A stretch of DNA of 64,000 nucleotides. It comes from Folioceros fuciformis (lineage: Eukaryota). Where the stretch lies: NCBI GenBank assembly GCA_049999805.1, contig JBNGIO010006030.1, forward strand, positions 1 to 64,000, given 5' to 3'. Of this stretch, positions 1,476 to 47,858 are shown piece after piece. Each line of letters begins with the position of its first letter. Position 1 is the first letter of the stretch. Both the position numbers and the translations under genes were made by a program. The notes under the pieces are model-generated. The model made no database searches. It worked only from the letters and a program-made list of their open reading frames with translations, and was not told the origin of the DNA.

Positions 1476-2335
1476 CTAGCGACCATAGAGCTTTGCAGAG
1501 ACCGTAACAGATACAGTGGTCATAGGTCCACAATATACAGTGGGCATAGGTCCACAGACGTCATTGTGAACCAATTCAAGAGGTTTACTTTTGTGTTTAC
1601 CTCTTACTCCATGTGGTGACTTCGTTTGTTTCCCATACAAACAGCGGTCACACACACAGAAATCGGAGAAGTCAAAAGCAGGGACGTAACCGAAACGAGA
1701 TAGTATCTTCATTCCTTTTTGAGACATATGTCCTAACCAACTATGCCACAAGAAAACATTTGGCTATTCCGTTACACAAATCACATGATCCTTGACAGTG
1801 GTTACCTGAAGTGAGTACAAAGTGCCACACTTCGATCCACGAGCTAACACAAGAGAACCTTTGGAGATCTTCCAAGAACGATCTCCAAACCAACAGTGGT
1901 AGCCAACGTCATCCAACTGCCCTACGCTAATCATGCTTTTGGTCAACTTCAGAACATGCCTAACATCCTTCAGTACGAATGAAGATCCATTGTCGAACTT
2001 CAGCTGCACATCACCAACGCCTGCAATCTCGCATGCGTAGTTATTTCCAAGCCGAACACATCCTTTCCTAGTAGCATCATAAGTGCTAAACCACTCCCTA
2101 TGTAGAGTAACATGGAAAGATGCTCCAGAGTCAATTATCCAATTAGAGAATAAGTGACTCTCCATGGCTGTCAGTTGTGCAGAATTGAAGGAAGAAGAGG
2201 TAAGAACATCTCCATCATTAACAGAGTTCACCTCGTCATGCTTGACACTGGGACTTTCCTTGTTGTCGCTCTGCTTCTTCTCCTTGCCTTTGTCCTTCTT
2301 GAACTTCTCGCAGTCCCTTCTAATGTGACCCTTTT
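1476..2335 (-). mobile_element. Degenerate Ty1/copia gag-pol fragment (partial zinc knuckle, aspartic protease, GAG-pre-integrase, start of integrase)
   Basis: Motifs KGHIRRDC, WIIDSGASFHVT, LKDVRHV, LWHSWLGHMSQKGM, CDRCLYGKQ and LELVHNDVCGPM occur in copia order. In-frame TAG at 1764-1766. Integrase is truncated near 1530; no RT/RNaseH seen. Confidence 0.9.
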
Positions 2336-5197
2336 GAGGGGAGATGCTATGTCGGGGCTGCCATCGATCCACAATGTCACAATCGTCGTCTCCCATAGCC
2401 GGAGTGCCCCCCATGTGTGGGGAGGACACTACAGACCCCCCACTATGCGTGGTGTGGTCGACTAAGCCACACTCCATGGACCCTGTACGCTCGGAGTCGT
2501 CTTGCAAGCAATCACCACCCTCTGTGTTTGCCATACCCTCCACCAATCCAGCAACATCGACAACCCCTGCCTTTGCTCGATACACTCTGACCATGTGTTC
2601 CATCATCTGCACGGCTGGATCCCATACATAAAGCAGCATAGTCTGAGTCTGGTGAGAGCTCTGCGACGTTGTACTGCCCGGTGGGAAGATCAGTGGGTCG
2701 TCGGTGAGCAATGCCGTAGGCGAGCCCCACTGGAATCGCTCAACGAAGCACCCTGGCCCCAGGCTACTCCTATCCAGGTGAAAGAGATGGGCGACAACAT
2801 TCAATATCTCCGCGGCCATAATACGAGGCTCAAAGTCTGACCCATTGTACGTTGCACCTACACGCATCGATGACGGCACATGTAGCTCCACCACAGTGCA
2901 GTCGGAGGATGTTATTTTCCTGGCTTGCATGGGCACGCCCCCATCAAGTGGCTCAATCGAGAATTCTGGGAAGTCGGGGTTCAGAGGAACCATTATCTTC
3001 AGCTTCTTGATGTGCACGCGCACAAGCGGGCTTCTTGCAACCATCGCTCGTTGCCTCCTCCTAGGTGATGGGGTGCCAGTGATGTGATTTCGTCGCAGCG
3101 TCATGGGTATGTTGCCGGCCGCTGCTCTCATGGTGTCCTCCGATGGTGGACGCGGTGAAATCTGTGGAGTGTGTGCGGGCGAGCGGGGCACTCCCCGTGC
3201 TACCACCATGGATGCACTCCCAGTAGCTGGTAGGCGTCCTCGCGGTTTCAGCCAACTCTGACATATTGTGCTCACACTCGACACTTGGAGCACTACAGGT
3301 CCATCAAGAGTGTAGCAGACCGTGCTACGAGCAGATGGTGCCGGGGTCACGGGTTTTGCCGCCGGTGTGGTAAGCTGTGGCTTTCGGGATGCCTAACGTT
3401 CGCGATTGGTCAGTGGGTCACCCTGGAACACATTGTCCTCATCTTTCTCCTCCATTCTCCAATCAGCAAGGATGGAGTCACCATTGTCGACGACAACATT
3501 CAGACGCCGTTGGCGCTCTGGCCTCCCTTCCACGGACATTTTGATGTCGATAGCGGCTGCACTTCTCTCTCCCCGGGTGCCGTGTCGCAGAGGGAACACG
3601 ATTTGTTCGCAGATGTAGCGGTTTGTGGATATGGAGTGCGTTCAGTTGCTGGGCGGGAGGGTGTGAGCATGCCCCACCCTCTCTCCATACGCCCATCGCG
3701 TACGGAGAGCATGGGTTCACTACATGGGATATCTGCATGCGCCTACCAGCCGCGCTAAACAATATGGGGTTCAGCAACCCTTAATACTGCCATTAAGAAG
3801 TCGGCGCTAAACGCAGATGTTTAAATCCCCTCCCTCATCAACTAAGGATGCCAGCCATTCTGCCGCGACACTTCACACTGAAAGTTGCCTGTCACACCAA
3901 GCTCGGGGTTTAGTGCCAAATGATTACTTGTAGATGGTAGCATATAATATCACTGCCACCCATAAGAGAGTGTGTCCCCGTCCACCCGAAGGCACTCCCA
4001 ACCCCGATCATACGGGTACTTGGGTATAGGGTGTGGGTTTGTGTTCGGTACCCACGTTTGCTGGAAATATCGCGGCCGCCATTCTGGATTATCAGTATAC
4101 AACTATTTAAACACGTACCATGGCGCGGCAATGGGTGACATATATAGAGGTCAAATAGGACATAATATATGTTGTTCCTCAAAAGTAATTCCAAAAAACT
4201 ATGATATGACATTCATGCATTTTGTAGTGTGTTATCTTTCTCTTTTACAATTGTATACACCCAAAAACAAAACACCATCACTTCATGAATTCAAACAACC
4301 ATGAAATATAACCCTAAACCCTAAAAACCCTAGGAGTCTGCATAGAAGGTGATAGTTTGCGAGAGGCTTAGTCACGGCGATGGGGAACCATGTGCGCTTC
4401 CAGATAGAGAAAGCCTTAGAGCGAGCAATACGGGCGGCGTTGAACTATGAGGAGTCCAACACGAGTGGTAGAAAGAAGTCAGGAAAGGAGGAGAGGTGAA
4501 TTCGTGATGGGAAGAAGTAGGAACAGAGGAGAAATAAGATAAAAGCATTCCTCGACATCGGAGGATGACTCGACTAAACCCTAAACCCTAACCTGCTATG
4601 GAGTGCCGGAGGACTGTGCAGTTGGCATTTGTAGCAAGCAAACCAAACACATATGCTTGACAGGCCTCAATTCTCACCAGGGCTATGCCGGCAACCCCCG
4701 TCGTGCCTCGGCCCGCTCTTATGCACTCCCTCTGAACACCTATAGAAGACATATTCGCACATTTGTAGAAGAAGAGGGGCAGAAGGCAAGAGTCACGCAT
4801 AGCATGCCCAAGAGTGCCCCTTTGTAAGCCACATGTGAGCTAAATAGGTCAAGATCTGTGGAGGACTTGAATGCATATGCCGGATTATAGGTTGACGGCC
4901 AATTCACAGCGAATTTCGATCAGAAATTGGCCAACATACGAAATCGATCAGCAATACAAGCAGGCCATCGCCGCGCACCCCTTGAAATGAAGAGTGTGTC
5001 CTTGGTTTGGGACAACGACACAATCCATGTCCCATTTGGTGCAGGACCGATTTCATACGTTTGCCAATGGGGAAATGTAGAGCTTGGGGTTGAAAAGTGA
5101 GTTTTCTTCAAGATATCCCAAAAAAAAAAAAAACATAGTTGCAATTATAGAGTGTCTACTTTAGCATTGCATACATGAATGTAGTGCAATACCCTAA

Positions 5198-5956
5198 ACC
5201 AAAGTGGTCACTCTCTCACTATACATTTTTTCAGGGTTTCCCATGGGGTATTTAGCCAAAAATTCCCTTTTGATGCCTATATTTTTCATGTCCCTATTGG
5301 TAAACCAGCCAAACCGGCCGCTGCACCAAAGGGGACATCGCTCAACGATTACAGCCCGTTTTGGGCTGGATGCCAAGCGGCCTCAGGGCAGAAAGCCCAA
5401 TCACCCCCTGTAACCATAGGTGGGGGGCGTGCTCTTGCTTGGGCAAGACATGCTTGCGAAGTGCAAGCATGTCCGGTTTGGTTTTGGGTTTAGGGTTGCA
5501 GTTACACGCCAAAGCGAACGCATAACCTATGTGTTTGGAAAAAAACCTAGAGAGAGGGGGCGTGTCCCCTTTGGTATGCCATATGGATCTTCCCAAAATA
5601 TTCTCTTTTTATGGTTTACCACAGAGCGGCACGAAATTGGTATGCCATATCAAAGGGGACACGCTCCCTCTCTCTAGGTTTTTTTACAAACACACAGGCT
5701 ATGCGTCTGCATAACCCGCAAGAGCGCGCCCCCACCTATGGTTACAGGAAGTGTTTGGGCTTTTTGCCCTGAGGCCGCCCGGCATCCAGCCCAAAAGGGG
5801 TGTAACCGTTGAGCCATGTCCCCTTTGGTGCGGCGGCCAGTTTGGCTAGTTTACCAATAGGGATAGGAAAAATATAGGCATCTAAAGGGAATTTTCGGCT
5901 AGATACCCCATGGGAAACCCTGAAAAAATGAATAGTGAGAGAGTGTCCCCTTTGGT
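5198..5956. repeat. Long imperfect inverted repeat (foldback/MITE-like element)
   Basis: 5198-5441 is the reverse complement of ~5719-5956. Inner arms ~5515-5575 pair with ~5651-5712. Confidence 0.85.
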
Positions 5957-6339
5957 ATGCCATAAACTGGATCTATACAAGATATTCCCGTTTTGGAGGG
6001 CATTAGTATGGCACGGGGCTCAGGGTTTAGAGTTTACCGTTTAGGGGTTAGGGCTCAGGGTATAAGGGTTTTTTGTCGATCCGAGGAAACGTCTTTGAGG
6101 TGGCCTCCACACAATTTGTTGCAAATGCATTTGCTAATTGTCTAGTTTGGTGCTGGCCCTCAAACTCGCGTACGCGCTAAAGTGGATGCATAACCCGTGC
6201 GATGGTTAATGAACCTAGAGAGAGGGCACGCATCTCCTTTGGCGCATGATAAGGTAGGGAGCGGTGGTAAAGAAGCAAGATTTACATTCTGCAGATGCGC
6301 ATGTCGTCTCTCATTGAGGATGACTACAAATGTGAATGA

Positions 6340-8150
6340 GGTCACGAGTACTGCTCAACCTCAATTGTCCATGGCCAAGGACCATAGCTGATTAGAAGTT
6401 CTTGAGTGTGCATAAATTGTTGGAATGCAATGAGAGCGAGGGGGGCTGAAGGGAGGGTGATGGGCGGTGACAATGAGGCATGGCCATGTATCCACCGAAC
6501 ACACTACATAGTTTAGTAATTTAAGAATGAACTAGGTGATTCCATGCAAGGGGGTGAAGGGAATGTGTATTTATACGAGTTTTCATTTCATTCATAGGGT
6601 ACACGTGCATTGGAAAGACTAGGGTGCGACGTGGGAACTTGAAAATGGGCAATGGCCAATGCCTGCAAAGGATAACAAGATCGCGATGTTGGATGAATAA
6701 AAAACGGCAATGGCCAAGGACTACAATGTACTATGAGTTTGAGACCTAAACCCTAAAAAGGGGGGGAATGCCAATGTCCACAACAGACTACTCGGATACG
6801 AGTTCATATGATTAACACACGTCGATGGCCAAGGAATACATTTGTGTATGAGGTCGCGATTCTGGATCAATCAGACCCGTTGATGGGCATAGACAACAGG
6901 GTCCCACAAGTTCTGAAGATGAGATCCAACAAAATTGAAGATGACCAAGGACTAGAGATGACAACAATATGTTCACAAGTTTGGAGCACTGCAAATTGTT
7001 GATTGCCAAGGACAACAATGTGCTAAAAGTTCTGCAGGTTGGAATAATGAACATGGTCGATGGCCTATGGGTACAATGGGCAACAAGTTTGCATTGTCTT
7101 ATCAATCATGAACGTCGATGGCCAAGGCCTACAATTGTGTATAAGGTCACGAGTTTGGATCAATCTTAAGTTTCGATGGCCAAGGACTATAGTGAAATAT
7201 AAGTTCGCGAGTGTATTTCATTTGCTGCAATGCAATGAGAGTGAGTAGGGCTGAGGGGAGGGTGCTGGGCCAGGACAACAGGGCATAGCCATGAATCCAC
7301 CAGACAAACTATATAATTTAGTTGTTTGTGAATGAACTGGGGCACCCTAAACCCAAAGGGATCAAAGGAATGTGTAATGTGTTCAAGTTTTCGCTTCATT
7401 CCTAGTGTAAAGTGCATGCGATAGAGCAGGGTGTGACTAGAGGACCCGCAAAAGGGCGATGGCCATTGTATTCAAGGACGACCAAGTTTGCGCTGTTGGA
7501 TAAAGCAATTGCGTCAAAGGCCAACGACTCCAATGTACTGTGAGTTTGAGAGTTAGGACCATAAAAAAGGGGGTGATACTAAGCATCCACAACGGTGAAG
7601 AATGATGCAAATTGATATGAATATCAAACGTCAATGGCCAAGGACAACATTTGTGTATAAGGTCGCGAGTTTGGATCAATGAGAGGTGTCGATGGGCAAG
7701 GACTACAGTTCACTACAAGTTCTATAGACGGGATGAATGAAGGTTGAAGATGGCCAAGGACTACAGATGACAACATGTTCACGAGTGTGGAGCACTGCAA
7801 ATTGTTTATTGTGAATGACATCATTGGACGATAAGTTCAAGAGTTTGGATTAATGCACCTGGACGATGGCCTATAGGTACAATGGATCTGAAGTTCGCAC
7901 GGTCCTATTAATGAAGATCGTCGATGGCCAAGGACTACAGTTGTCTAGGTCACGAATGTGGATGAATCTCAATTGTCGATAGCAAAGGACTGTAGCTGAA
8001 TATAAGTTTGCGAGTGTATACCATTTGTTGGAAGCAACCCATTTGTATACACACTACACCAAGGCATTCTTGCAAGGACCACAGATAAAGCTATGCTATA
8101 TTGATGGCCCAGCAAGGACTATAGATGTCATGTCACATCCGAGAACACTT
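6340..8150. repeat. Degenerate tandem duplication (~808-bp period) built from ~60-bp subunits carrying GATGGCCAAGGACTACA
   Basis: Matching blocks at 6421/7226, 6820/7630 and 6960/7769. The motif recurs near 6370, 6710, 6824, 7117, 7175, 7634, 7749 and 7924. Confidence 0.8.
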
Positions 8151-8489
8151 GAAACAAGGAACCTATATATGGTGTTGTGCACATATGTATATATATTGGG
8201 AAATAAATGAGAATATTGTTTTAAGGGTGTAGTGGAGGTTGAGAAGGGCACAATTCACGGTGTTTTGAATCAGTAGTGTGTAGTGAAGAGATGTGATGGA
8301 CATGGGGCGGGGATGGGGGTTGGAGAGGTAGCAAGCCATGCATTTTACGCCACGTGAGGGTAGACGGAGCCGCCACCGAGGCGTGAAGGACAACTGTATG
8401 CCATTATTCAATGACATACTGTAGTATACAAAAAGTTAAGCCCCACCACAGGAGAAGGCGTGTGAAGCTGAAGGGTGTGGGTGGTCAAG

Positions 8490-8673
8490 AGCTGCGGGCA
8501 AGGACATGTTTCCACTCAACAGCTGCGGGCAAGGACATGTTTCCGCTCAACAGCTGCGGGCAAGAACATGTTTCCGCTCAACAGCTGCGGGCAAGGACAT
8601 GTTTCCGCTCAACAACTACGGGCAAGAACATGTTTCTGCTCAACAGTTGCGGGCAAGGACATGTTTCCGCTCA
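8490..8673. repeat. 31-bp minisatellite x6 (AGCTGCGGGCAAGGACATGTTTCCGCTCAAC)
   Basis: Head-to-tail units start at 8490, 8521, 8552, 8583, 8614 and 8645, with no spacers. Confidence 0.95.
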
Positions 8674-9214
8674 GTATCACGTCCTTCACCATGAATGCAG
8701 TGCGTGATGGAAACACAAGCACGTGGATAAACTTGAGAACGCAATCTACGTGCGGGGTAGAGGAGTGTCCGTGTCAATGAGGATGCCCCAAGGGGCAACT
8801 CTTTGGCAGTGGTCATGGTCGTTGTGCATGTTCGTCGTCGATGGTAGGGGACGATTTAGCTCTGCATGATTTTTCTGGTAGGATGATTGTTAGGAATTAA
8901 GCCTTACTCGCTTAGGGTTAATTATGGGATTATTTATATTTAGGTTTTATTATCTAAGGGTCATCTAGTGAAGAGGCACCTAGGCATATATAGACATACT
9001 TTAAACACTCTTTGTAATTATTCTTATCAATTGTCTTATGTTCTTTTCTCTCCTGCTCTTCTTTTCTGGCCATGTCATATTGTCATGTCCAATAATCATC
9101 AATGATACCGCTAAGCTTTCTCAACAATCTAATGCTCTAATGTTTTTTTTGTCTGGGGTGCAGCGGCAAGAAGCTCAGTTTTCCTCGGATTTGGTCATGC
9201 CTGGCAGCCCGCAG
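8673..9214 (+). repeat. Local duplication of 13858-14185 (intron plus first 17 codons of an exon), interrupted by a solo LTR
   Basis: Near-identical sequence from AGTATCAC to GCAGCCCGCAG in both places, including the acceptor GGGGTGCAG|CGGCAAG. Confidence 0.95.
8888..9101. mobile_element. Solo LTR (214 bp) with 5-bp target-site duplication ATGAT
   Basis: TGTTAG...ATCA termini, with ATGAT at 8883-8887 and 9102-9106. The paralogous segment has a single ATGAT at 14072-14076 (empty site). A TATA-like TATATA lies inside. Confidence 0.85.
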
Positions 9215-9892
9215 GAACATATGCAGCGACATATCGGCATGGATGAGGAGGGAGCCCAATGTATTGCAAATGCTCTTCCGCTCTGTGCCTCGCTCCGGAA
9301 GCTTGCCTTGGATGATGAATATCCAAGTGGGCGTAATGCAGTTAGGGGTTCCATACAGAGCAGCCTGGGGCCCATGAGCAATGTGTTGAAACTGGCTTTC
9401 ACTCGTGCTGATGCTAAGGCTGATGCCCCCATATCTGGGGTCACCAAGGTGACGTGGGGTATTGGGAACAGAGAGGAGCCAAGCCTGGCCGACGCGCTGG
9501 CTGGAATGTTGCACACCAACGATTGTATCACGGACCTTACGATCAGCTGTTTTGTTGTCAAGTTTGGCCTGGACGCCTGGCGCCACAACTCCACCCTCTC
9601 CACACTTAAGTTGTTCTACTATTACTTTGACGTGTCGTTAAGTAGATTTTCGATGTCGTTTCTGGAATGCAAATCATTACGCAAGCTGTTTTTGGAACGG
9701 ATTGAGTGGCCCTCTTTCATGGCAGTCTTTGGCGAAAAATACATCTTTGAATGCGTTGTACATTGGGTATTGCTGGGCACTTGACGATAAGCTGTTTAGA
9801 GAGTTGATGTAGTCCCTCCAAGTCAACACCACTTTACAGAAGACGAGACAAACTGTAGGAGAGAGGGAAAGCAGGCCATCATCAACGCGACG

Positions 9893-11314
9893 TTGGCACG
9901 CAATGTTAGTCACAACGCCTACTGGCCTTTGCTTTTGGAGGGGCAAAAGGCTGTGAAGCCTAGGGTCGGCCGCCTTTTCCTGTGCGGTGCACCTTACGCA
10001 GGGAAGACCACTCTTCGAAACACCATGATCACTGCATGGCGCGCATCGCAACCACACACATCACATTCTACAGGAGCCGCATCAGCCAACCAAGTCCAAT
10101 TGCGGGAAGAACTATCTCTCGCTTGGAGACGTCCCCGGTTCGGTAATGTTCCACGCACAGGAGCGGCACCACCTAGCCAGGTAAGTACTGTCCCCAGAAC
10201 GGAAGGCATAGAAATCGAGGTGCTACGCAACGACGACGAGATGGAAGTTACCATTTGGGATCTGGCTGGACAAGCTCACTACCGAGTTCTGCAAGACTAC
10301 TTGTTCCCCAGCTTCAACCAGACATGTGTCTTCTTGTTCACATTCAACCCATTTGATGCCGGCAAGCCTAGTGGACCCCTCCCGTCTACTGAAATGGTGT
10401 TGGAAAAGTTCACAAGCAGCTTCAAGTTCTGGCTGAGATTCATCCACTCTAATTCTCGCAATGTGGGTTCCTGTTGGCCTCAGGTATTTGTGGTTGTCAC
10501 TCATAAGGATCAGATGCAGGCTATGGACGTTGAAACACTAGTCAGACTGCTGCAACAAGTCGTGGACGAGTTGGCCAAGGCTTTTGAGGAGGTACTTCAT
10601 GTTACAACAACCCATCTATTCTTCATGGATGCTCGATCTACGTACACCACGCACCCGGTGCTGGAGGAACTATTCCAATCGTTTCGACAGCTATTTGCAC
10701 TTCCTCTGTTTTGGGTTCCGGAGCCATGCAACCGACTCAGTGTTGTTTTGACACAGTGGGTATCTCAAAATCTAGCTGAGCCTATTGTCACCAAGGAGCG
10801 ATGCAAAGAGTTGTTTCAACAAGATGATGAGCTACGCCTTCAAGCAATTCTTGCCCATCTCCACGATGCAGGCAGAGTCATCTGGTTCCAAGATGTAGAT
10901 GTTGTGGTGGTGAATCCACAATGGATTAGTCATTCATGTCTGGGCCGCCTCATTGAGCGCCTAGCCAGACATCATTCCTTGGGAATATTCAAGGATGGAT
11001 TTGTTGCTACAACTTTGCTGCATGGAACCTTGAACGACATCCTCGACCACACGCAAGTGCAAGGCATTCGTGCTAAATATCTGGTATTATTGATGAAGAG
11101 ACTAAACTTGTGCTACGAAGATCATGCCAATCGCAGGCCAGGATTCTTCGTTCCCTTCACCTTGGATGACGCTGAAGGTAAAGGTCTTCAAGGGAAACGA
11201 CAGTTGGATTGGAAGGGTGGTGCGGCGTCCAAGTACAGTTACGTAGGGAGGCGGCTACAATGCCGAGATGGAAGAAAAACGTTTCTTGGTCCAGGCTGCT
11301 TTGTAAGATTCCAG
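9893..11314 (+). CDS. Roc GTPase-COR exon of the TORNADO1-like gene (open frame)
   Basis: 484-aa ORF with all Roc G-boxes and COR-A/B motifs. It ends at the donor TTCCAG|GTACGT. Confidence 0.85.
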
Positions 11315-11704
11315 GTACGTTGCCTTCTGAGCTGTCTCTTTTGTTAGTCATTTAACCTCTCTTGTGTTTCATGACATGGCCAATGGCTGTGCATTGCAGG
11401 TCAAGTAGTAGATGTAGTTCGATGGGCTCTGCGGTATGCAGTCTCATCAGTATAGCATTGCGCGTAACTTGATCATATTTAACTACGATGGTATGGACGT
11501 GTTTTTGGAGAGCAGTGGGGATATTTGGGACGAGACCGGGGACATTGGGGATCGTGTTGACATTTTGATGAGGTCACTCAAGAGCAAAGAGAAACGATCC
11601 AGTTTCTCCAGCAGAGGGTTGTTGCGGAACTGAGAGCATTTTGTGCCTCTCCTGAAGGTAGTCCTGGAGTTGACCTAGTAGAAGGGATCATCCGGACTGA
11701 GTGT

Positions 11705-12943
11705 ATGGAGAAGCTCACACTCTGTATTCACCGACACATTCAATGGGTTGTCAACCAGCATTTGATGAAGTGCTTTCTACATCATCACAAAAGCCATGCA
11801 GGGCAGACTTCCTCCGGCTCGAAGTCGTCCGATTATCAATGGTGCTGGCCAGAAATGCCTGAAGCCGGTCTATCCCTTGTATACGAGAAAGCCAGGGATC
11901 TGTTAAGTCGCGAAGAGGTGCAGTCTGCTTTGCAGCAGTGTGGGCCCCGTCCATCCCTCGACGCAACGAGTGGCCCTTCAGCTGGAACAAGTCAGCCACA
12001 GGTGCCGCCTATACTGAAGTTAGGGAAGGAACCTTCATATCCAAACGAAAGGGCGAAAGCAGGTCACCGGAGAGGGCTTGCAATGATAGTCAGCATGGAA
12101 GACGACAGGGATGGAGGACAGGTAGACAGAGGGCGACTTGAAGCTCTCTTCCAGATGTTGAATTTTCATAGAGATATCGTGGTGAACGGTCCTAAGGAAG
12201 GGAAATCAAGGTTGAAAGCCATTCTCATGGTCCCTCGCCTAGCAGAAGACGACTGCTTTCTGTTTTGCGTGAACGCCCATGGTGGGACTGATGAAGACGG
12301 AAGACAGTATGTTTGCTCAGGTGAAGCAGACGAGGCGGAGAAGCTTTATGTTGAAGATATTTTGAATCCCATCGCTGAATGTACGTATTTGGCACACAAG
12401 CCGAAGGTGGTTGTCATAAATGCCTGTCGAGGCATTGGGCGTCTTGTCAAAAGCATGAAACCGCAGGAGTCAAGCACTGCCAACCCTGCCACTACCAGCA
12501 AAGCCAAGGTGTCAGAGGTTGAGGGAAGCCAAGCACAGGGGTCGGGCCCCGCCGACCTTGCCACTACCAGCAAAGCCGACGGGTCAGACGTTCAGGGAAG
12601 CCAAATTGTCAGAAACAGAGTTCGACTATTGTCTTCTGTGAAAGACTGCCTCACAGTTTTCTCCACCAGTCCTGGAGATGCATCTTTGAGAGATGTCGAC
12701 GAAGGCACAAACTTCATCATAGCTTTGATGCTTGCCATCGTGGAGGGCTCTGATACCGAAGATGTCTTGACCATTCTGAGAAGCGTGATTGGCAAGGCGA
12801 CGGACAAGGAGGTCCAATACAAAACCAAAGAAGGGGACTATAAGAAGAAATATCAGTGTCCTGAGTTGCGCAGCACACTTACCAAAAAGCTATACTGGTC
12901 TCGACCACCCCCGACTCCTGTCATGCCTGGCTGTAAGGAGTAG
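11705..12943 (+). CDS. COR C-terminal segment + linker + caspase p20/p10 domain (domain ~12038-12898)
   Basis: RRGLAMIVS, DRDGGQVD, DCFLFCVNAHG (His 12278), HKPKVVVINACRG (Cys 12425), DCLTVFSTSPGDASLR, GTNFI and QCPELRSTLTKKLYW are collinear with the caspase consensus. Confidence 0.88.
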   Translation: MEKLTLCIHRHIQWVVNQHLMKCFLHHHKSHAGQTSSGSKSSDYQWCWPEMPEAGLSLVYEKARDLLSREEVQSALQQCGPRPSLDATSGPSAGTSQPQVPPILKLGKEPSYPNERAKAGHRRGLAMIVSMEDDRDGGQVDRGRLEALFQMLNFHRDIVVNGPKEGKSRLKAILMVPRLAEDDCFLFCVNAHGGTDEDGRQYVCSGEADEAEKLYVEDILNPIAECTYLAHKPKVVVINACRGIGRLVKSMKPQESSTANPATTSKAKVSEVEGSQAQGSGPADLATTSKADGSDVQGSQIVRNRVRLLSSVKDCLTVFSTSPGDASLRDVDEGTNFIIALMLAIVEGSDTEDVLTILRSVIGKATDKEVQYKTKEGDYKKKYQCPELRSTLTKKLYWSRPPPTPVMPGCKE

Positions 12944-13721
12944 CATGTGGCCAAGGCCTGTAATTCCTTCAACATATAAGCACGAATTATTGTACTTCGT
13001 GGAATTTCACGTGAGCAGGTTCCCCTCCGCCTCCGAGCCAGGTTGCAGGACAGGATAAAATCGTACGGAACATACCTCCTGCATTCAATTCAGATGCACG
13101 AACGCACGAAACACAAGGCGACGACTACCAAGGACGGACATATTGGGGGTACAAATGGGAGAAAAAGAAATTTTTTTTTGAACTCCATTATGAAGGTCTC
13201 ATTCCGTCGGACCGTACTCTCACATACGTATGTATGTAGTTCGATGCAATGAATGTAGACCTTGGAAATCAAACAGTGTACGATGACAGATGTACATGTA
13301 TCTCAGAATAGGGCTTGGTACGTTCTGTTAGAGTTGTATTCACTGTTTTGTGACAATGTCATCTGTCTTCTCTGCTTTTTAAAGGGCTTAGGATCAAGCC
13401 AACGACGCCGGGCTTAGGGTTTAGACGGGAGGCTAGAGTCGGAGAGGTGATGGACCAATCCTTGAGTACGTAAACTTGTTCAAGTCCTTCATGGACCGAT
13501 CTCCGTCACGGCACAGGTATAGCTCCTGATTACGGACCTTGGTGCCTTGCGAGTAGCCTTCGAGTCTAAATCCAAAATTCAGACGTGTTGTACCCCCGCA
13601 TTTGAATGCCTGACCGCGTGGACGTCTCGAGGTTCCCGGAGCGATGACCGCCATGCACACTGGCCTAGCAGTAACCTTGCCCTGCTGCAACATCTTGCAG
13701 AACCGATTTTGAGCCTGGTCC

Positions 13722-13850
13722 AGAAGAGCTATCTGCCTGATTGAAATTCCAATTGATGCCGGGGCAAACGAAAGGAGGCTCGAAGAGAAGGGCTATCTGC
13801 CTGATTGAAATTCCAGTTGATGCCGGGGCAAACGATAGGAGGTTCGAAGA
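13722..13850. repeat. ~64-bp direct repeat x2
   Basis: AGAAG(A/G)GCTATCTGCCTGATTGAAATTCCA..TGATGCCGGGGCAAACGA.AGGAGG.TCGAAG occurs twice in tandem. Confidence 0.9.
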
Positions 13851-15784
13851 GGAGGTAAGTATCACATCCTTCACCATGAATGCAGTGCGTGATGGAAACA
13901 CAAGCACGTGGATAAACTTCAGAACGCTATCTACGTGCGAGGTAGAGGAGGGAGTGTCCGTGTCAATGAGGATGCCCCAAGGGGCAACTCTTTGGCAGTG
14001 GTCGTGGTCGTTGTGCATGTTCGTCGTCGATGGTAGGGGACGATTTAGCTCTGCACGATTTTTCTGGTCGGATGATACCGCTAAGCTTTCTCAACAATCT
14101 TGCGCCCTCATGGTTTTTTTTGTCTGGGGTGCAGCGGCAAGAGGCTCAGTTTTCCCCGGATTTGGTCATGCCTGGCAGCCCGCAGAATCACCACTGGTTT
14201 TTTTGGGACCCCTCCAGGCAGCAGACGCGTGAGGACATGTCCTCTATCTTGAGCTCCAGCTCTGGAGATGGCCAGTCCACGCCCTTGAGTATACAAGACT
14301 TGAATATACCAGACTTCACTGTTGCAAGTCCTTTCAGCGATGTGATGCTCATTAGTGCAACTCACGAGGAAAGGTTTGGATGCAAGTACAACCTGTCGCA
14401 AAGATCGCCTGTGCTCAACCGTATGTTTCACAGTAAGATGAAGGAATCGTTGCCAACTCAGGACATGGTTTCGATTCCGTTTCCGAACATGAGCACGGAA
14501 GCATTGAATTTCCTTCTTGAATATACCTTCACGGGGGAAATCTTGTTTCACAGGTATTATCAGAGTCCTGTGGAGGTGATTCATGTTTGCCGTTATTTTC
14601 AGCTGGATAAGGAACCTACGGAATTGCTACAAGACATAATGTATCACCTGCAGCTGGCCTATACGGATTCTCTCGTGACCTACGGTCAGATTAGTGACAG
14701 GGCTGCCGAAACTCTCTCCAAAGCTCTGGAATATCTGTCGATGGACGAAGACAAAGAGCTCTTTGACTATCTGCTGAAGGTTCTTTCGTCCAGATATCTT
14801 CAGTCCATCAGTCCTCAGCGTCTCACCGCTGACGCACTGCGTTTCTTGCTCTCACGCTCACTCAGGACTGATGCTGTTGAGATCACACCATTTGCTACTA
14901 CAGAGGTTGCCACCTGTTTGTACTTGATGTTGTGGGCAGCTCAGCAACTGTCTGGAACTGCACTGGACGAGATGCAGGAATTTGTCAACAAGGTGGAACT
15001 TGCTGCGCGGATGAAAACTAAGCTCAGAGCTAAGCTCAAGCCAGAGCTTTCAAACCAGATAGCTCCTATTGTTCTTCCATTTTTGTCTCTTATCGACTTG
15101 AGACTTGTAAGAGCTAGGGATGTTGCTCTCGTCATCGAACCTCTGAAGGTCATCCCGCAAAACATGATGTTTAAAGCTCTATGTTACCATGCGGCTCATC
15201 GAGGCAAGTCCACACAAATATTTTACAGGGGACCATTTGTGGTGCAGTGGGACTGTAATGCTCGATCCACAAGGCTGCACGTCTGTAACACGGATGATGG
15301 CAGGCAGTTGAGTTGCAGAGGTTTCGCAGGTGGTTACGCAAGAACAGTTTCCCCAGCGAGGGAAGCTGGGATTTATGAATGGGAGGTTCGGATCAAGCGT
15401 AAACGTCTGTGGTGTCAGATTGGAATTGGCCTTTGCACGGACCACGGAAGCTCAGATGCTTTCAGTTACGCAGTTTGGCTGGGGAACCAGCCCTATGGAT
15501 GGATCCTCGACAACAACAGCAGATTCTGGCACAATGCAAGTTGCGTGCCAGTCAATTCCAACGTCACCTTCACAGGGCACGGGCGTGAGGCAAGAGTAAT
15601 GGTACGCCTGGACATGAACGCACGGAAGTGTGAATTCACGTACGACAAATGTATAGTGGTTGCCCCTTGGACAAACATTCCGGATGAGGTCTATCCTGCG
15701 GTATCCTTCCACAAATCTGAGGGTAGCAGCAGAACCTGGGTGGAGATATTGCCCGCCACTGGCCATGGACGAAGGGTGGACTGA
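13756..15784 (+). CDS. BTB/POZ-BACK-like + C-terminal SPRY/B30.2 domain protein (exons 13756-13854, 14135-15784; alternative start Met at 14237)
   Basis: BTB: SDVMLIS...LSQRSPVLNRMFHSKMKES...EALNFLLEYTFTGEI. SPRY: GIYEWEVRI...IGIG...GWIL...VRLDMNARKCEF...VYPAVSF. Donor GAG|GTAAGT at 13855 and acceptor at 14134 join in phase 0. Confidence 0.82.
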
Positions 15785-32454: not shown

Positions 32455-34616
32455 ATGGCTGTCGCGGGCCTGTACCGGCGTCGGCTGCCTTCTCCTCCTG
32501 CCATCGAATTTGCTTCTCCTGACGGCAAGGTGCTGTGAATTAATTGCCTTGCTGTCTTGATGCGTGTGATTTGGCCTAATTGCGCTCACGATGTGAGATG
32601 CAGGCCATATTTCGAGAAGCACTGGAGCATGGAACGATGGAAGGATTTTTTCACCTCATAGCGCACTTCCAGACTCAGGCCGAGCCAGCTTTTTGTGGGC
32701 TGGCCTCATTGGCTGTAATTCTGAATGCCTTGGCCATCGACCCTGGTCGGACGTGGAAAGGTAATTTGCTTCTCCCTCCTTCCTTTGGAGATCGCTTGGA
32801 TCTCGTTTCCCGGCTGACTTCGTTCTTTCTAAAGGACCGTGGCGTTGGTTCGATGAGTCCATGCTGGAATGTTGTGAATCGTTGGAGAAGGTGAAGGAAG
32901 AGGGCATCACTTTCGCCAAAGTGGCATGCGCCGGACAATGTGCTGGAGCCAATGTGCAAGGCATTCGTGCCAGCACCAGCTCGTTGGAGGACTTCCGTCA
33001 GCATGTACTTGAATGCAGTACTGGAGGGGATCGCCACATGATTGTATCGTATGACAGGAGGATTCTGGGGCAGGTGCCGTGGTTGCTCTCTGTCACTGGA
33101 TTTAGTCTCGATTGATTTGCTTTCCAGCGTTGTTAGAAAGTGTTCTTGTTGGCATGCATCTTGTAGGCAGACGGGTAGTGGTCATTTCTCACCTTTGGGA
33201 GGCTACAACCAAGACAGGGACTTGGCACTCATCTTGGACGTGGCAAGGTTTAAGTATCCCCCTCATTGGGTCCCCTTAACCATTCTCTGGGACGCTGTCA
33301 ACACCATTGACCCTGCAACAGGGAATAGTCGAGGGTAAGCACCGAGTGGATTTTGTGAGCAGTGGATGCACGCCGTTTCTAGGGTCTGATTCGGAATTCA
33401 TGGCCAAGTGCATTTTGTCTCTTGTGTGCCAGGTTCTTGTTAGCATCCAAGCCTGAACGACCTGCATCGGTTCTGTTCACTCTGGTATGGTAGGAGTAAG
33501 TTTATGCTTGTAAGCAAGATTAGCTGGATTTGAGGCTTACGTCAGAGGATATTTTCTGCAGTCCTGCAAGGATGAAAGGTGGAGGCCCATTGCAAACCAC
33601 CTGATCGAAGACGTACCCCAGCTGTTGAGGTGCGGAGATTGGAGCATTATAGGAGACGTCCTATCGGTTGCCTTGGGCTTGATGCCTGCAGATGTTTCAT
33701 GTTTCTTGAAGTGGGTAGCTGAGGTGAAACGCGCAGAAACCATACCAGGAAATATTGGAAGTGAAGCTGCCGGTGCTCTTCATGCAAAAGTGAGTTTATA
33801 CCGGCAACCGTTCCTTCCTTCTCCGCCTGCTAGCCCATGCCAAGGCCCGTATGACTTGACACTCGTCCCGGGTGGTTTCCAGGCTGAGGTGCTGTCACAG
33901 CTTCGAGTGACTACTCTGTACAAGATGGTTTGGGACTGGGCAAATGGTCTCTGCAGTAGCTGCCCTGCACCTTGTCCGTTGCCATCTCTTGCGGGGGAAG
34001 ATCTGCCTGAGGCCGTGAAAAATGCTTGTTGCCAGGGTGCAGCTGCACTTTCTGGAATGCTGGGTTTGTCAGCCAGGGGGTGCAAGGGTGCTTCTGTGAC
34101 AACTCGCTTTATTGACAGCACTGAGGCAACTATGGTTGTTGGGAATGTCTCATTGCCTGATGGAACTCATGACAGTGTGGACATACTTGTTCCCACAATT
34201 CCATCAGAGAAACTTCAGCTTCAGCCTGGGACGACTTGTACGTGTTTGCATCCCGCTTCTGCAGATCTGCTAACAATGCTGGTGTTTGCACTTCCCACAA
34301 CTACGTGGAACCAGATACAGAATGCGACGGTGCAAAAAGAACTAGCTGATGCTGTCTCGACAGTCAATCTCCCAACGAGGTTGAAAGTGGAGGTAAAACC
34401 TGGTTGCTCTCTCCCTTGTCTGCACGTTCTGCCCGTCCTTTCTGCTGCGCTTTAATAATCTCCTCTACTTGCCAGGTTGAGAATCTGCGGGAACAACTTT
34501 ATGTAGTCTACAGATGGTGCAATGACGGCGATATTGAGGGAGATTTTAAAATCCCTCCGGTCCTAACCTCTCAGACGCTCAGATCCATGGCGGAAGTCGT
34601 TGTCGGCCACGATTAG
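32455..34616 (+). CDS. PCS: Phytochelatin synthase (glutathione gamma-glutamylcysteinyltransferase), multi-exon
   Basis: [21 protein letters not shown], catalytic triad EPAFCG / GHFSP / [14 protein letters not shown], and a Cys-rich C-terminal domain. Confidence 0.95.
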
Positions 34617-46600: not shown

Positions 46601-47858
46601 ATGCGAGTAATAATAAAACTTGCGCAGGCCTGCGCCTGCGGCATGGATTCTATTCTACCCGGGGTTTTTGCTCTGGCTCTGGCTCTGGCTCTGCGCTTGT
46701 CCCATTCTCCAAAACGACAGGAGCGCGTCTGCCATCGTCTGACGCTGCTGCATCTCCACACTGTGGGATACAGGAATACAGCTTACATACTACAGTGTGG
46801 ATGGGAGAGAAAAGGAGGAGAAAAGCTGTGGTGAGGGGAAAGGTAAAGAATTGCGCGGAGTCAGGCATGGCGATGTGCAGTGAGGTGGAATAGCATGGAA
46901 TGGACTGGATGTCACTGTTTCATCATTCGTACCCCCCGGAAGAGGAAGAGGAAAGGTTGGGTGATGGGTCATGGAGGCTCATGCCCCATGGCTGAACTTG
47001 CTTACAGGCGCAAAACGCGAGGAGGCCAAAAGGGGGCTCAACTCTCTAATCATGGCGCAGGGCTGGAGGGTGAGGCCATGTGGAGGGCCCAGCCCTCCTG
47101 CTGCCCCCTCTTCTCGGGCACCACAGTGTCCAGAGGCCAGGAATAAAAAGGAGGTACATACATCAAGCACGCCTGTAATACAGTGCTCTCCACTGCACAG
47201 TGCAGGAGCAGCAGCAGCAACAGTAGCAGACTCTCTCTCCCACCAAGCAGAGCCGGGAAGCGCTCCACAAGTCCAGATGGACCTGGCAATGGCGGCAGGC
47301 CCTCCTTGTTGGCACGGAAAAGGGGAGGGAGGGCAACTTCTGATATCTACATAAAGCTCATGGTGGGGCAGTCCTCGGCGTCCAAAAGAGGTCTGGAAGA
47401 GAAGTCGAAGAGGAGAGTCTTCCAAGAGGAAGGGAAGGGGAAGAGGAAGAGGAAGAGAGATCCTGGTCCAAGAAGACAGAAAGACAGACAGGAGGAGAGA
47501 CAAGAGGACGCGAGGCAAGAGTCATTGCGGTGGCCACCCCAGTTCCCACTGCACTCCACTCCACTCCCGGCCTGGGGAGAGAGAGAAGCGGGGCAATCGG
47601 CACTGGGAGGTGGTTATTCCCGCCCGTGCAGGCTCACATTCAGCCACCGGGCCATGAATGGAGGTGGAGCCAGCGGGGGCATGAAGGATGGGGGAATGCA
47701 GCCGCACCCGCAGCTGCACCGGAGGAGAAGGCGAGGTGGGGCTGCCAGGGCGTGAAGGTGGAAGCTTGTCCTGGCTCCTCCTCCTCCTCATCCATCTGCC
47801 TTTCCTGCAGCCCTACCTTGGATTGCAGAACTAGGCCAGGGCCAGGCCATATCCGCTC

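What the first reader, a model, noticed from the sequence alone, without database searches (positions are those of the whole stretch)
12038..12898. Animal-type (C14A) caspase domain in a plant nuclear genome, with Asp-specificity residues
Seen: the ORF aligns by eye with the caspase p20/p10 consensus along its whole length. RRGLAMIV ~ PRGLALII; DRDGGQVD ~ RxGTxxD; NAHG ~ SHG; KPKVVVINACRG ~ KPKLFFIQACRG; FSTSPGDASLR ~ YSTxPGYxSWR; GTNFI ~ GSWFI; STLTKKLYW ~ STLxKKLYF. The catalytic His (12278) and Cys (12425) are present. So are the two arginines that form the caspase S1 pocket (12107, equivalent to caspase-1 R179; 12689, equivalent to R341). Established: plants are considered to have only metacaspases (C14B; D-x-C-H-S-G motif, acidic S1, Arg/Lys-specific) and no true caspases. 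Inference: this may be a genuine aspartate-specific caspase, possibly acquired by horizontal transfer.
Basis: partly seen in the sequence, partly recalled or inferred. Interest (0 to 1): 0.93.

Follow-up and report, generated by a model that had tools for sequence, protein, structure and literature searches.

The report
Caspase-type protease domain in a bryophyte gene
A land-plant genome carries a protease domain of the animal caspase type, fused to a plant GTPase-switch gene; relatives occur in liverworts and hornworts, against the textbook view that plants lack caspases, although this particular copy looks broken.

Summary
ORF 11561-12943(+) contains a full-length Peptidase_C14 domain (Pfam E=1.4e-20). 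The catalytic His and Cys and both S1 arginines lie at the coordinates given.

Its closest relatives by sequence and by predicted fold are animal caspases, not metacaspases or MALT1.

It is not contamination. The same ORF continues upstream into a COR-B segment of a plant TORNADO1-like Roc-COR (ROCO) gene. The window also holds a PLS-class PPR gene and a phytochelatin synthase gene.

The domain belongs to a well-supported clade (SH-aLRT 99) with proteins of Marchantia polymorpha, M. paleacea and Riccia fluitans, and with hornwort (Nothoceros) transcripts. The clade replaces the caspase QACRG motif with NACRG.

No evidence points to a recent transfer from animals. The tree could not be rooted.

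The gene is one member of a multi-copy family. This copy carries in-frame stops and frameshifts upstream of the caspase domain, which similar contigs from the same organism lack in part, so it is probably a pseudogene.

Likely mechanism for intact copies (inferred): ROCO-driven dimerisation activates a protease that cuts after acidic residues.

Eight literature searches found no description of such plant caspases.

The parts
8673..9219 (+). 5' leader module of the gene. It is duplicated 5.2 kb downstream in front of a BTB gene and is interrupted here by a 214-nt insertion (8888-9101).
   Evidence: the repeat finder (96-98% and 95% copies). blastn: 8673-8887 matches 13858-14076 at 95%, and 9102-9214 matches 14072-14185 at 93%.
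9220..9862 (+). Degenerate leucine-rich-repeat region. The reading passes from frame 2 to frame 0 near 9720, meets an in-frame TAG at 9810-9812, and returns to frame 2 between 9840 and 9863.
   Evidence: Three-frame translation. In tblastn with the Marchantia paleacea ROCO protein P0212, its residues 641-697 align in frame 0 across the stop and residues 690 onward align in frame 2. An X1 contig at single-copy depth (12) covers 9654-9840 with 0 differences.
9863..11314 (+). Roc GTPase (P-loop GAPYAGKT at 9986-10009) plus COR-A and the start of COR-B, in one open exon.
   Evidence: Pfam COR-A E=3.1e-10 (40.5 bits, cut-off 35.3). Pfam Roc E=3.5e-5 (24.5 bits, below the cut-off of 27). 34% identity over 94% of the query to the M. 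paleacea ROCO protein, E=2.1e-63.
11315..11399 (+). 85-nt GT..AG intron between the Roc-COR exon and the exon that holds the caspase domain.
   Evidence: A joint 11311>11397 (GT..AG with the cut moved by 3) was seen only in run X2: 1 contig, depth 23.2, side 25. The donor follows the last sense codon of ORF 9800-11347.
11400..11417 (+). Start of the second exon, with three in-frame TAG codons (11406, 11409, 11415).
   Evidence: Sequence. Homologues have 12 sense codons here (P0246). Some X1 and X3 contigs carry three extra bases here. The X2 contigs match the window (table 4).
11418..11590 (+). COR-B segment, read in frame 0.
   Evidence: tblastn of Marchantia polymorpha P0246 residues 979-1006 in frame +3. 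Alignment to P0003 and P0007.
11590..11591 (+). Site of a one-base deletion that shifts the reading from frame 0 to frame 2.
   Evidence: Predicted from homology. Similar contigs carry one extra base exactly here: X2 313.5 of 313.5 depth, X3 95.8 of 95.8, X1 83.7 of 262.8 (table 4).
11591..12070 (+). COR-B tail (FCASPEGSPG... motif region) and the linker to the protease domain, in the same ORF as the caspase domain.
   Evidence: tblastn of plant ROCO proteins P0212 and P0246 up to 11920. BLASTP to the Nothoceros transcript product P0248, E=8e-31, from residue 6 to 290.
12071..12442 (+). Large-subunit (p20-like) part of the caspase domain: Arg 12107-12109, His 12278-12280, Asn 12419-12421 and Cys 12425-12427 (motif INACRG).
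   Evidence: The AlphaFold2 model has pLDDT above 90 over most of it.
12443..12586 (+). Disordered intersubunit linker. It holds a 72-nt tandem duplication (12459-12530 and 12531-12602, 81% alike) and several Asp residues.
   Evidence: pLDDT below 50 for residues 136-183. The repeat finder family D5.
12587..12895 (+). Small-subunit (p10-like) part: Ser-x-Arg with Arg at 12689-12691, and the last strand (residues 276-279, 12863-12874) that forms the predicted dimer interface.
12941..12943 (+). Stop codon (TAG) of the ORF.
   Evidence: Multi-copy depth ends near 12968 (table 2).

Best explanation
The segment is the C-terminal protease domain of a plant LRR-Roc-COR (TORNADO1-like ROCO) gene. The domain is of the caspase type (MEROPS C14A-like), not a metacaspase. 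It belongs to a bryophyte clade of caspase-type domains found in liverworts (Marchantia, Riccia) and in a hornwort (Nothoceros).

In this genome the gene is one of many similar copies. The copy in the window has lost its reading frame upstream of the protease domain and is most likely a recently decayed pseudogene. Its 460-codon caspase ORF and all its catalytic residues are still intact.

For intact members I infer the following mechanism. The Roc-COR GTPase switch, which dimerises through COR in other ROCO proteins, brings two protease domains together. They pair through their last beta-strand as animal caspases do. The active dimer cuts after acidic residues, Asp and perhaps Glu because of the Gln-to-Asn change. 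The probable setting is a cell-death or immune response.

Shown here: homology, residues, predicted fold, plant context, family and lesions. Inferred: activation route, specificity and biological role.
For: Domain identity:
- PF00656 matches full-length at E=1.4e-20.
- All 60 listed of 167 PDB sequence matches are caspases, the best being coral caspase-3 at 6.9e-9.
- A profile of 12 clade sequences, none from a named animal, finds caspase-3, -6, -7 and -8 at 1e-34 over its full length. All 60 listed of 243 matches are caspases.

Predicted fold:
- The AlphaFold2 model has mean pLDDT 83.8 and pTM 0.80, with six main strands.
- VIA-align Z-scores: caspases 23.0-28.2 (best rmsd 1.6 A over 205 residues, 22-28% identity), c-FLIP 22.6, MALT1 21.5 and 18.8, metacaspases 18.7, 18.1, 15.1 and 13.0 at 8-13% identity.

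Residues:
- The equivalents of Arg179, His237, Cys285 and Arg341 are present.
- Across the 14-row clade they are kept in 13 of 13, 12 of 14, 13 of 14 and 12 of 14 rows.

Plant context:
- The window holds a PPR gene with an E motif, a phytochelatin synthase C domain and a copia Pol domain.
- G+C at the locus (0.495) matches its neighbours.
- The Roc-COR exon is 34% identical to a Marchantia paleacea ROCO protein (E=2.1e-63), and TORNADO 1 proteins are among the 35 hits.
- Plant ROCO proteins align up to 11920, inside the same ORF as the caspase domain.
- A hornwort transcript product has the same COR-B tail plus caspase layout.

Clade: 14 rows with SH-aLRT 99 and a stem of 0.82. Every named row among the other 41 is an animal (names).

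Multi-copy family: 335 contigs of run X1 at 90-99% likeness lie on the gene. Word depth is 39-256 in the gene against about 11 in the 3' flank.

Lesions.

Dimer: ipSAE 0.57 against 0.00 for the best of 3 controls. The mark was reached by 21 of 30 proteins solved as pairs of one chain and by 0 of 23 solved as single chains. On eukaryotes it was 17 of 29, but only 1 of 7 with no older solved relative. The runs agree in at least 43% of contacts, and partner pLDDT is at least 66. The interface is residues 274-284 and 242-256, the canonical caspase interface. Caspase dimers are solved, so this pass may come from memory and shows likeness only.
Against: - The copy in the window cannot be translated as a full-length ROCO-caspase as assembled. 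It has a TAG at 9810-9812, frame changes near 9720 and 9850, three TAGs at 11406-11417, and one base missing at 11590.
- At 11405-11409 the contigs of the putative RNA run match the window, stops included. It is therefore unclear how, or whether, the protease part is translated even in expressed copies.
- The S1 Gln is Asn in 12 of 14 clade rows, whereas 12 of 12 animal rows have Gln. Specificity may differ from Asp.
- The tree has no outgroup, so the data do not separate 'sister to all animal caspases' from 'nested among them'.
- 9 of the 14 clade rows come from unnamed assemblies, so their organisms are unknown.
- The structure model used an alignment made mostly of animal caspases. The dimer prediction may reflect memory of solved caspase dimers.
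- No enzymatic or genetic data exist.
Confidence: 0.68

Rival explanations
1. The copy in the window is an intact, functional ROCO-caspase gene. On this reading the apparent stops and frameshifts are assembly errors, or are removed by splicing I did not model. One example is an acceptor at 11441|11442, which would skip the three TAGs.
For: The 460-codon caspase ORF is open and keeps every catalytic residue. In run X3 all contig depth at 11590 carries the extra base, 95.8 of 95.8. An AG at 11440-11441 followed by an open frame 0 would bypass the TAGs at 11406-11417.
Against: X1 contigs without the extra base exist at 11590; 83.7 of 262.8 depth carries it. A single-copy-depth X1 contig reproduces 9654-9840, including the TAG at 9810 and the frame change near 9720, with 0 differences. 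Homology runs straight through the stop at 9810 and through the frame change at 9840-9863. The candidate introns there would be only about 30 nt long.
Confidence: 0.15
2. An ancestor of this plant lineage acquired the domain by horizontal transfer from an animal, and the domain was then fused to a resident ROCO gene.
For: Every named relative outside the plant clade is an animal caspase. No relative was found in one genome of each of 185,579 prokaryote species with the pattern used; 0 of 24 pattern matches were confirmed. No named vascular plant, moss or alga appeared among the proteins whose names I looked up.
Against: The clade includes liverworts and a hornwort and has a long stem (0.82). 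It is not nested in any sampled animal subfamily, whether effector, initiator or inflammatory. It has its own NACRG signature. Base composition at the locus is like its neighbours. A transfer, if any, would therefore be ancient. Only 150 of 415 hits were visible, and only 30 of them were looked up by name.
Confidence: 0.2
3. It is functionally a metacaspase- or paracaspase-like enzyme that cuts after Arg or Lys, and it only looks like a caspase.
For: All plant C14 proteases studied so far are metacaspases. This is stated in the abstracts of PMC10896300, PMC12521494 and PMC5756287, seen in the search listings. MALT1 scores fairly high in the fold comparison (Z 21.5).
Against: The S1 positions hold Arg and Arg, not the acidic residues of metacaspases and MALT1 (that those families have acidic S1 residues is recalled knowledge). 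The motifs are NAHG and INACRG, not the metacaspase motifs. Identity to metacaspases is 8-13% with Z 13-18.7, against 22-28% and Z 23-28 for caspases. No metacaspase or MALT1 appears among the 60 best PDB sequence matches.
Confidence: 0.05
4. The segment is animal DNA in the assembly, through contamination or a chimeric join.
For: The nearest named relatives outside bryophytes are animals.
Against: The caspase domain shares one ORF with a COR-B segment homologous to plant TORNADO1-like ROCO proteins. Homologues lie in the assemblies of three liverwort species and in a hornwort transcriptome. Contigs of three runs labelled with the same organism cover the gene and continue into its 3' flank. 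There is no compositional break.
Confidence: 0.02

Closest known systems
Animal caspases (MEROPS C14A; caspase-3, -6, -7, -8, -9, CED-3, Dronc)
   Same: Full-length Peptidase_C14 match. His/Cys dyad in xHG and xACRG contexts. Both S1 arginines, and the Ser-x-Arg and K-Q-x-P...S-x-L-x-K-x-L-Y-(F/W) motifs. A disordered intersubunit linker. A predicted six-stranded fold (Z 23-28) and a predicted beta6-beta6 dimer.
   Different: It occurs in a plant. It has Asn in place of the Gln of QACRG. It has no CARD, DED or short prodomain, and instead sits at the C-terminus of an LRR-Roc-COR protein. It forms a separate clade with a long stem. Its activity is untested.
Marchantia polymorpha Mp6g00860/Mp6g00900 (PTQ31690.1, BBN13107.1 and others), M. 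paleacea KAG6554914.1, Riccia fluitans KAL2622267.1: 'Caspase family p20 domain-containing protein'
   Same: Same clade of caspase-type domains (SH-aLRT 99), with the NxCR motif and both S1 arginines. They are land-plant nuclear genes.
   Different: In the two Marchantia species the domain follows alpha/beta-hydrolase (SERAC1-like) repeats instead of Roc-COR; Pfam Abhydrolase_6 in P0011 (names). Identity to the window domain is only about 30-39%.
Nothoceros aenigmaticus (hornwort) transcripts, EukProt EP00246 P016448-51 and P009469
   Same: A COR-B tail followed by a caspase domain in one ORF, as in the window: E=8e-31, 31% identity over 307 columns. Nearest named row to the window in the tree.
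   Different: These are partial transcript models, so their N-terminal architecture is unknown.
Plant ROCO protein TORNADO1 (TRN1) and its bryophyte relatives
   Same: LRR, Roc GTPase, COR-A and COR-B backbone. 26-34% identity over about 90% of the Roc-COR exon.
   Different: None of the 35 listed relatives has a Peptidase_C14 domain on record. TRN1 is known for developmental patterning (title of Cnops et al. 2006, seen only in a reference list).
Plant metacaspases (AtMC4, AtMC9; C14B) and the paracaspase MALT1
   Same: Same caspase-hemoglobinase fold and the same His/Cys dyad.
   Different: Lower structural and sequence similarity: Z 13-18.7 and 8-13% identity for metacaspases, Z 21.5 and 18% for MALT1. 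The window has basic rather than acidic S1 residues (the acidic pockets of these families are recalled knowledge).
NTPase-switch plus caspase systems: apoptosome and inflammasome, DAPK1 (a ROCO protein with a death domain), and prokaryotic NTPase conflict systems with caspase-like effectors (PMC7159879)
   Same: The same logic of a nucleotide-dependent switch or oligomeriser coupled to a caspase-fold effector. Passages of PMC7159879 were read.
   Different: Here the switch (a ROCO GTPase) and the caspase domain are in one polypeptide, and the host is a plant. No adaptor domains are present.

Membership tests
Caspases (MEROPS C14A) | Significant full-length match to the caspase domain profile (Pfam PF00656) | tested here: met
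   E=1.4e-20, 74.5 bits against a cut-off of 21.4, profile positions 1-233 of 233. PF00656 also covers metacaspases, so this alone does not separate C14A from C14B.
Caspases (MEROPS C14A) | Catalytic His and Cys in (S/A)HG and QACxG contexts | tested here: met
   NAHG (His 12278-12280) and INACRG (Cys 12425-12427). The pentapeptide begins with Asn, not Gln.
Caspases (MEROPS C14A) | Basic S1 pocket: the two arginines (caspase-1 Arg179 and Arg341) | tested here: met
   Arg at 12107-12109 and at 12689-12691 align with the conserved arginines of 12 of 12 animal caspases. They are nearly invariant in a 118-row alignment.
Caspases (MEROPS C14A) | S1 Gln (caspase-1 Gln283, the Q of QACRG) | tested here: not met
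   Asn at 12419-12421. Asn in 12 of 14 clade rows, Gln in 12 of 12 animal rows.
Caspases (MEROPS C14A) | Closer to caspases than to metacaspases, paracaspases or legumains | tested here: met
   Sequence: the best 60 PDB matches are all caspases. Predicted fold: Z 23-28 for caspases, 21.5 for MALT1, 13-18.7 for metacaspases, 17.7 for legumain.
Caspases (MEROPS C14A) | Position inside the caspase clade in a rooted phylogeny | tested here: inconclusive
   In the unrooted IQ-TREE tree the plant clade (14 rows, SH-aLRT 99) lies opposite 41 rows, and every named one of those is an animal. No metacaspase, paracaspase or orthocaspase sequences could be brought in.
Caspases (MEROPS C14A) | Homodimer through the last beta-strand | tested here: inconclusive
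   Prediction only: ipSAE 0.57 against 0.00 for the best of 3 controls, with an interface at 274-284 and 242-256. The pass may come from memory of solved caspase dimers.
Caspases (MEROPS C14A) | Cleavage after Asp | not testable with these tools
   Needs recombinant enzyme and peptide substrates.
   The S1 positions hold Arg and Arg. The motifs are NAHG and INACRG.
Metacaspases (MEROPS C14B) | Closest structural relatives are metacaspases | tested here: not met
   AtMC4 Z 18.7 (8% identity), AtMC9 18.1, Yca1 15.1 and 4af8 13.0, against caspases at 23-28.
ROCO proteins (Roc-COR) | Roc GTPase followed by COR | tested here: met
   COR-A 40.5 bits, above the cut-off of 35.3. Roc 24.5 bits, below its cut-off of 27. 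The P-loop GAPYAGKT and a DLAGQ motif are visible. E=2.1e-63 to a Marchantia paleacea protein that carries Roc and COR-A.
ROCO proteins (Roc-COR) | One continuous coding sequence from the N-terminal repeats to the C-terminal output domain | tested here: not met
   This copy has in-frame stops and frame changes at 9720-9863, 11406-11417 and 11590.

The most novel reading that the evidence does not exclude
Caspases are not an animal invention. On this reading, bryophytes keep an old, separate lineage of true, acid-specific caspases with an NACRG signature. Liverworts and hornworts have wired these directly onto immune-type switch modules: ROCO GTPases in this genome and in hornworts, alpha/beta-hydrolase modules in the two Marchantia species. 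The result would be single-chain 'apoptosome-like' cell-death executors, later lost in vascular plants.
Probability: 0.3. Interest if true: 0.9.

Novelty: new variant of a known kind. Interest (0 to 1): 0.74.

Why it matters
Reviews and recent papers state that caspases are restricted to animals and that plants have only metacaspases. I saw this in the abstracts of PMC10896300, PMC12521494 and PMC5756287 (search listings).

A conserved bryophyte clade of caspase-type domains with a basic S1 pocket would qualify that statement. It would give a testable candidate for caspase-like (Asp-directed) proteolysis in land plants. It would also bear on where caspases came from.

The fusion to a ROCO GTPase, and in Marchantia to hydrolase modules of the kind found on bryophyte NLRs (PMC11218826, passages read), suggests a previously unnoticed class of plant cell-death or immune effectors.

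Marchantia is genetically tractable, so the question can be tested directly.

The copy in the window is probably dead. The value lies in the family, not in this locus.

Tried and rejected
- **Word-indexed protein search with the domain alone.** 3392 candidates, none at E<=0.001. The exhaustive HMMER search was needed instead.
- **No whole genome is held for the window.** I therefore could not make a genome-wide copy count, search for the plant's own metacaspases, or obtain prokaryotic outgroups.
- **Scan of one genome per prokaryote species** with the motif KPK[VIL][FV][FIL][IV][NIQ][ACS]C. 24 pattern matches, 0 confirmed. This tests one motif only.
- **Expression.** No RNA holder is listed. 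X2 is only guessed to be RNA. It has zero depth on both flanks, which the DNA runs cover, and it alone shows GT..AG joints. Those joints have short sides (24-28 letters) at 90% likeness, so I treat them as hints. Two further X2-only joints inside the Roc-COR exon (10589>10755 and 11181>11245) remove in-frame coding sequence, and I did not adopt them as introns.
- **FastTree** placed a flatworm (Macrostomum) protein with the plant clade. It moved away under the mixture model, so I regard that placement as long-branch attraction.
- **The profile search** used an alignment that included three sequences lying among animals in the trees. Its animal-only hit list is therefore biased. One search repeats the test with clade members only.
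- **Earlier findings of this scan:** nothing.
- **Literature.** Searches found no paper describing caspase-type C14A proteins in bryophytes. Subscription journals and supplementary files were not searchable, and the HGT tables of PMC12513842 could list this family.
- **Organism.** I did not determine the species. The E-motif PPR gene, about 50% G+C and the closeness to Nothoceros suggest a hornwort or another non-marchantiid bryophyte. This is inference only.
Full report
**1. The observation**

The window has an ORF at 11561-12943 on the + strand, 460 codons from stop to stop. Its residues 171-445 (window 12071-12895) match Pfam Peptidase_C14 over the whole profile (1-233 of 233), with E=1.4e-20 and 74.5 bits against a curated cut-off of 21.4.

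- Arg AGG at 12107-12109
- His CAT at 12278-12280
- Cys TGT at 12425-12427
- Arg AGA at 12689-12691

phmmer against all PDB sequences gives 167 matches at E<=1. The 60 listed are all caspases.

One point was missed. The residue equivalent to Gln283 of caspase-1, the Q of QACRG, is Asn here, giving INACRG.

**2. Which branch of the C14 family**

Four lines of evidence agree that the domain is of the caspase type, not a metacaspase or paracaspase.

(a) An exhaustive HMMER scan of 1.84 billion representative proteins gave 415 hits at E<=1e-3, with 24 at E<=1e-10 and the best at 2.5e-28 and 41% identity. I looked up the names of 30 of the 150 listed proteins, and supplied names for 37 further hits. 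Every named protein is either an animal caspase or caspase-like protein, or a bryophyte protein.

(b) I built a profile from 12 members of the plant clade only, with no sequence from a named animal. It finds caspase-3, -6, -7 and -8 in the PDB at about 1e-34 over the full length. All 60 listed of 243 matches are caspases.

(c) An AlphaFold2 model has mean pLDDT 83.8 and pTM 0.80 and is disordered only in residues 136-183. It has six main strands. Against 48,161 PDB representatives, VIA-align gave these Z-scores:

| Group | Z | Notes |
|---|---|---|
| Caspases | 23.0-28.2 | best rmsd 1.6 A over 205 residues; 22-28% identity |
| c-FLIP | 22.6 | |
| MALT1 | 21.5 and 18.8 | |
| Metacaspases | 18.7, 18.1, 15.1, 13.0 | 8-13% identity |
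| Legumain | 17.7 | |

Foldseek's top rows are also all caspases. One caveat applies: the alignment given to AlphaFold2 consisted mostly of animal caspases.

(d) The two S1 arginines, the dyad, the Ser-x-Arg motif and the C-terminal Q...S-x-L-x-K-x-L-Y-W motif align with those of 12 of 12 animal caspases.

**3. It is a plant gene, not contamination**

The window carries several typical land-plant genes:
- an intronless 1,028-codon PPR gene with an E motif (59039-62125, minus strand)
- a phytochelatin synthase C-terminal domain (33514-34455)
- a copia-type Pol domain (1764-3392, minus strand)

G+C at the locus (0.495) matches its neighbours.

The ORF immediately upstream (9800-11347) is a Roc GTPase plus COR-A. 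Its best relatives are bryophyte and angiosperm TORNADO1-like ROCO proteins. The best is from Marchantia paleacea at E=2.1e-63, 34% identity and 94% coverage, and proteins named TORNADO 1 are among the 35 hits.

The most telling point is that plant ROCO proteins align up to 11920, inside the very ORF that then runs into the caspase domain. A hornwort (Nothoceros) transcript product shows the same layout, a COR-B tail followed by a caspase domain (E=8e-31).

Contigs of three public runs labelled with the same organism cover the gene and continue into its 3' flank.

**4. Gene anatomy**

The parts run in this order:
- a 5' leader (8673-9219)
- a degenerate LRR region (to about 9862)
- the Roc-COR exon (to 11314)
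- an 85-nt GT..AG intron (11315-11399), seen as a joint only in run X2
- a second exon holding the rest of COR-B, a linker and the caspase domain, ending at the stop at 12941-12943

The intersubunit linker of the caspase domain contains a 72-nt tandem duplication (12459-12602). This explains why the linker is longer than in relatives.

**5. This copy looks broken**

Read against its homologues, the coding path has these lesions:
- a frame change near 9720
- an in-frame TAG at 9810-9812, where the M. paleacea protein has Ala
- a frame change between 9840 and 9863
- three in-frame TAGs at 11406-11417, just after the intron, where homologues have 12 sense codons
- one base missing at 11590

I predicted the missing base from homology, and the read data then bore it out. 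Similar contigs carry exactly one extra base behind 11590. The depth carrying it is 313.5 of 313.5 in X2, 95.8 of 95.8 in X3 and 83.7 of 262.8 in X1.

Some X1 and X3 contigs also carry three extra bases at 11405-11409. The X2 contigs match the window there.

An X1 contig at single-copy depth reproduces 9654-9840 with no difference. The lesions in that stretch are therefore not assembly noise.

I conclude that the copy in the window is probably a pseudogene as a full-length ROCO-caspase. Because the 460-codon ORF is still open and its catalytic residues are intact, the decay is either recent or the C-terminal part is used in some other way.

**6. A multi-copy family**

335 contigs of X1 lie on 9000-13400. 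Of these, 63 are at 99% likeness or more, 117 at 95-99% and 155 at 90-95%. Word depth is 39-256 over the gene and about 11 in the three 3' flank bins.

The window itself holds only one copy.

X2 is only guessed to be RNA. It covers 9147 to about 13000 and has zero depth on both flanks. This is a hint, not proof, that family members are transcribed. Independent support for expression of the family comes from the Nothoceros Trinity transcripts.

**7. The clade**

I built an IQ-TREE tree (LG+C20, quick search) of 55 chosen domain sequences. It unites the window with Marchantia polymorpha, M. paleacea, Riccia fluitans, Nothoceros and nine sequences from unnamed assemblies, with SH-aLRT 99 and a stem of 0.82. 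The other 41 rows form the other side, and every named one of them is an animal: sponge, cnidarian, insects, molluscs, echinoderm, hemichordate, amphioxus and vertebrate caspase-1, -4, -6, -7 and -8.

A FastTree of 151 rows gave the same set plus a long-branched flatworm protein, which left the set under the mixture model.

Within the clade the key residues are kept as follows:

| Position (caspase-1 numbering) | Clade rows that keep it |
|---|---|
| Arg179 | 13 of 13 |
| His237 | 12 of 14 |
| Cys285 | 13 of 14 |
| Arg341 | 12 of 14 |
| Gln283 | replaced by Asn in 12 of 14 |

Three members have lost a catalytic residue and are likely pseudo-proteases.

I could not obtain any outgroup, so the root is unknown. 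The data are compatible with an ancient lineage sister to animal caspases, or with a very old transfer. They give no support to a recent transfer.

**8. Mechanism (inferred)**

ROCO proteins act as GTP-dependent switches that dimerise through COR. This is established knowledge of LRRK2 and bacterial Roco proteins, which I recall rather than tested. Caspases are activated by induced proximity and dimerisation, which is also established knowledge.

A two-copy prediction of the window domain passed its controls. The score was ipSAE 0.57 against 0.00 for the best of 3 controls. The mark was reached by 21 of 30 proteins solved as pairs of one chain and by 0 of 23 solved as single chains. On eukaryotes it was reached by 17 of 29, but by only 1 of 7 with no older solved relative. 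The runs agree in at least 43% of contacts, and partner pLDDT is at least 66.

The interface is the last strand (residues 274-284) plus helix 242-256, which is the canonical caspase dimer. Caspase dimers are solved, so this shows likeness and may come from memory.

With Arg/Asn/Arg in S1, I expect cleavage after acidic residues. The shorter Asn may widen the pocket towards Glu. The linker has several Asp residues that could serve as autoprocessing sites.

I infer a role in cell death or immunity from three things: the switch-plus-executioner architecture, the multi-copy and fast-decaying nature of the family, and the Marchantia members. In those, the same domain follows alpha/beta-hydrolase modules of the kind found on bryophyte NLRs that trigger cell death (PMC11218826, passages read).

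**9. Comparison with what is known, and novelty**

The domain passes most membership tests for C14A but fails the Gln283 test. Its rooted position and its activity are untested. I therefore file it as a caspase-type (C14A-like) domain and a new variant, not as a proven caspase.

The Marchantia and Riccia members already carry an automatic UniProt name, 'Caspase family p20 domain-containing protein', so the sequences are not new to databases.

Eight full-text searches found no paper that describes them. Current abstracts still state that plants lack caspases (PMC10896300, PMC12521494, PMC5756287, seen in search listings only).

None of the 35 plant ROCO relatives lists a Peptidase_C14 domain, so the ROCO-caspase fusion appears undescribed as well. 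Subscription journals and supplementary tables could not be searched.

**10. Verdict**

Interest is high for the family and lower for this probably dead copy.

Noticed in passing
window 8673-9219 and 13858-14185: A leader of about 330 bp is shared at 93-98% identity by the ROCO-caspase gene and the next gene downstream, the BTB-domain ORF 13970-15784. In the BTB gene the leader is in frame with the coding sequence. In the upstream copy it is interrupted by a 214-nt insertion (8888-9101) and a stop. This looks like a duplicated promoter and first exon joined to two unrelated genes.
   Followed up: partly
window 8454-8701: A tandem array of a 31-nt unit (about 7 copies, 91-96% alike) lies directly upstream of the shared leader. 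A 64-nt tandem pair at 13711-13838 occupies the matching place before the second leader copy.
   Followed up: no
window 5500-8100: A long stretch of degenerate short repeats built around a recurring '...cgatggccaaggac...' unit, seen by eye. It has a strong positive GC skew (0.23 at 6001-8000).
   Followed up: no
window 12459-12602: A 72-nt (24-codon) in-frame tandem duplication, 81% alike, inside the caspase intersubunit linker. Some similar contigs differ here by 3-nt insertions (table 4).
   Followed up: partly
window 59039-62125 (-): An intronless 1,028-codon PLS-class pentatricopeptide-repeat ORF with an E motif, a family linked to organellar RNA editing. From recalled knowledge, this argues against a marchantiid liverwort as the source.
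   Followed up: no
window 46000-50200: A G+C-rich block (0.59-0.63) with overlapping long ORFs. It includes a BTB domain (47835-49103) and a strong BTB/POZ-ankyrin-like match (49173-50192, E=6.9e-86).
   Followed up: no
proteins P0013, P0030, P0007 (plant-clade members from unnamed assemblies): Two members have Tyr in place of the catalytic His and have lost the second S1 Arg. One has Gly in place of the catalytic Cys. These are likely pseudo-caspases within the clade.
   Followed up: partly
protein P0217 (Riccia fluitans R1flu_028436): A 1,916-residue protein with NB-ARC and alpha/beta-hydrolase domains on record also matches the window's Roc-COR exon (E=9.6e-43, 29% identity over 88% of the query). 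It may be an NLR-ROCO hybrid.
   Followed up: no
proteins P0010 (Anabrus simplex) and P0016, P0019 (Medioppia subpectinata): Arthropod proteins with two or three tandem caspase domains in one chain are among the better hits to the window domain.
   Followed up: no
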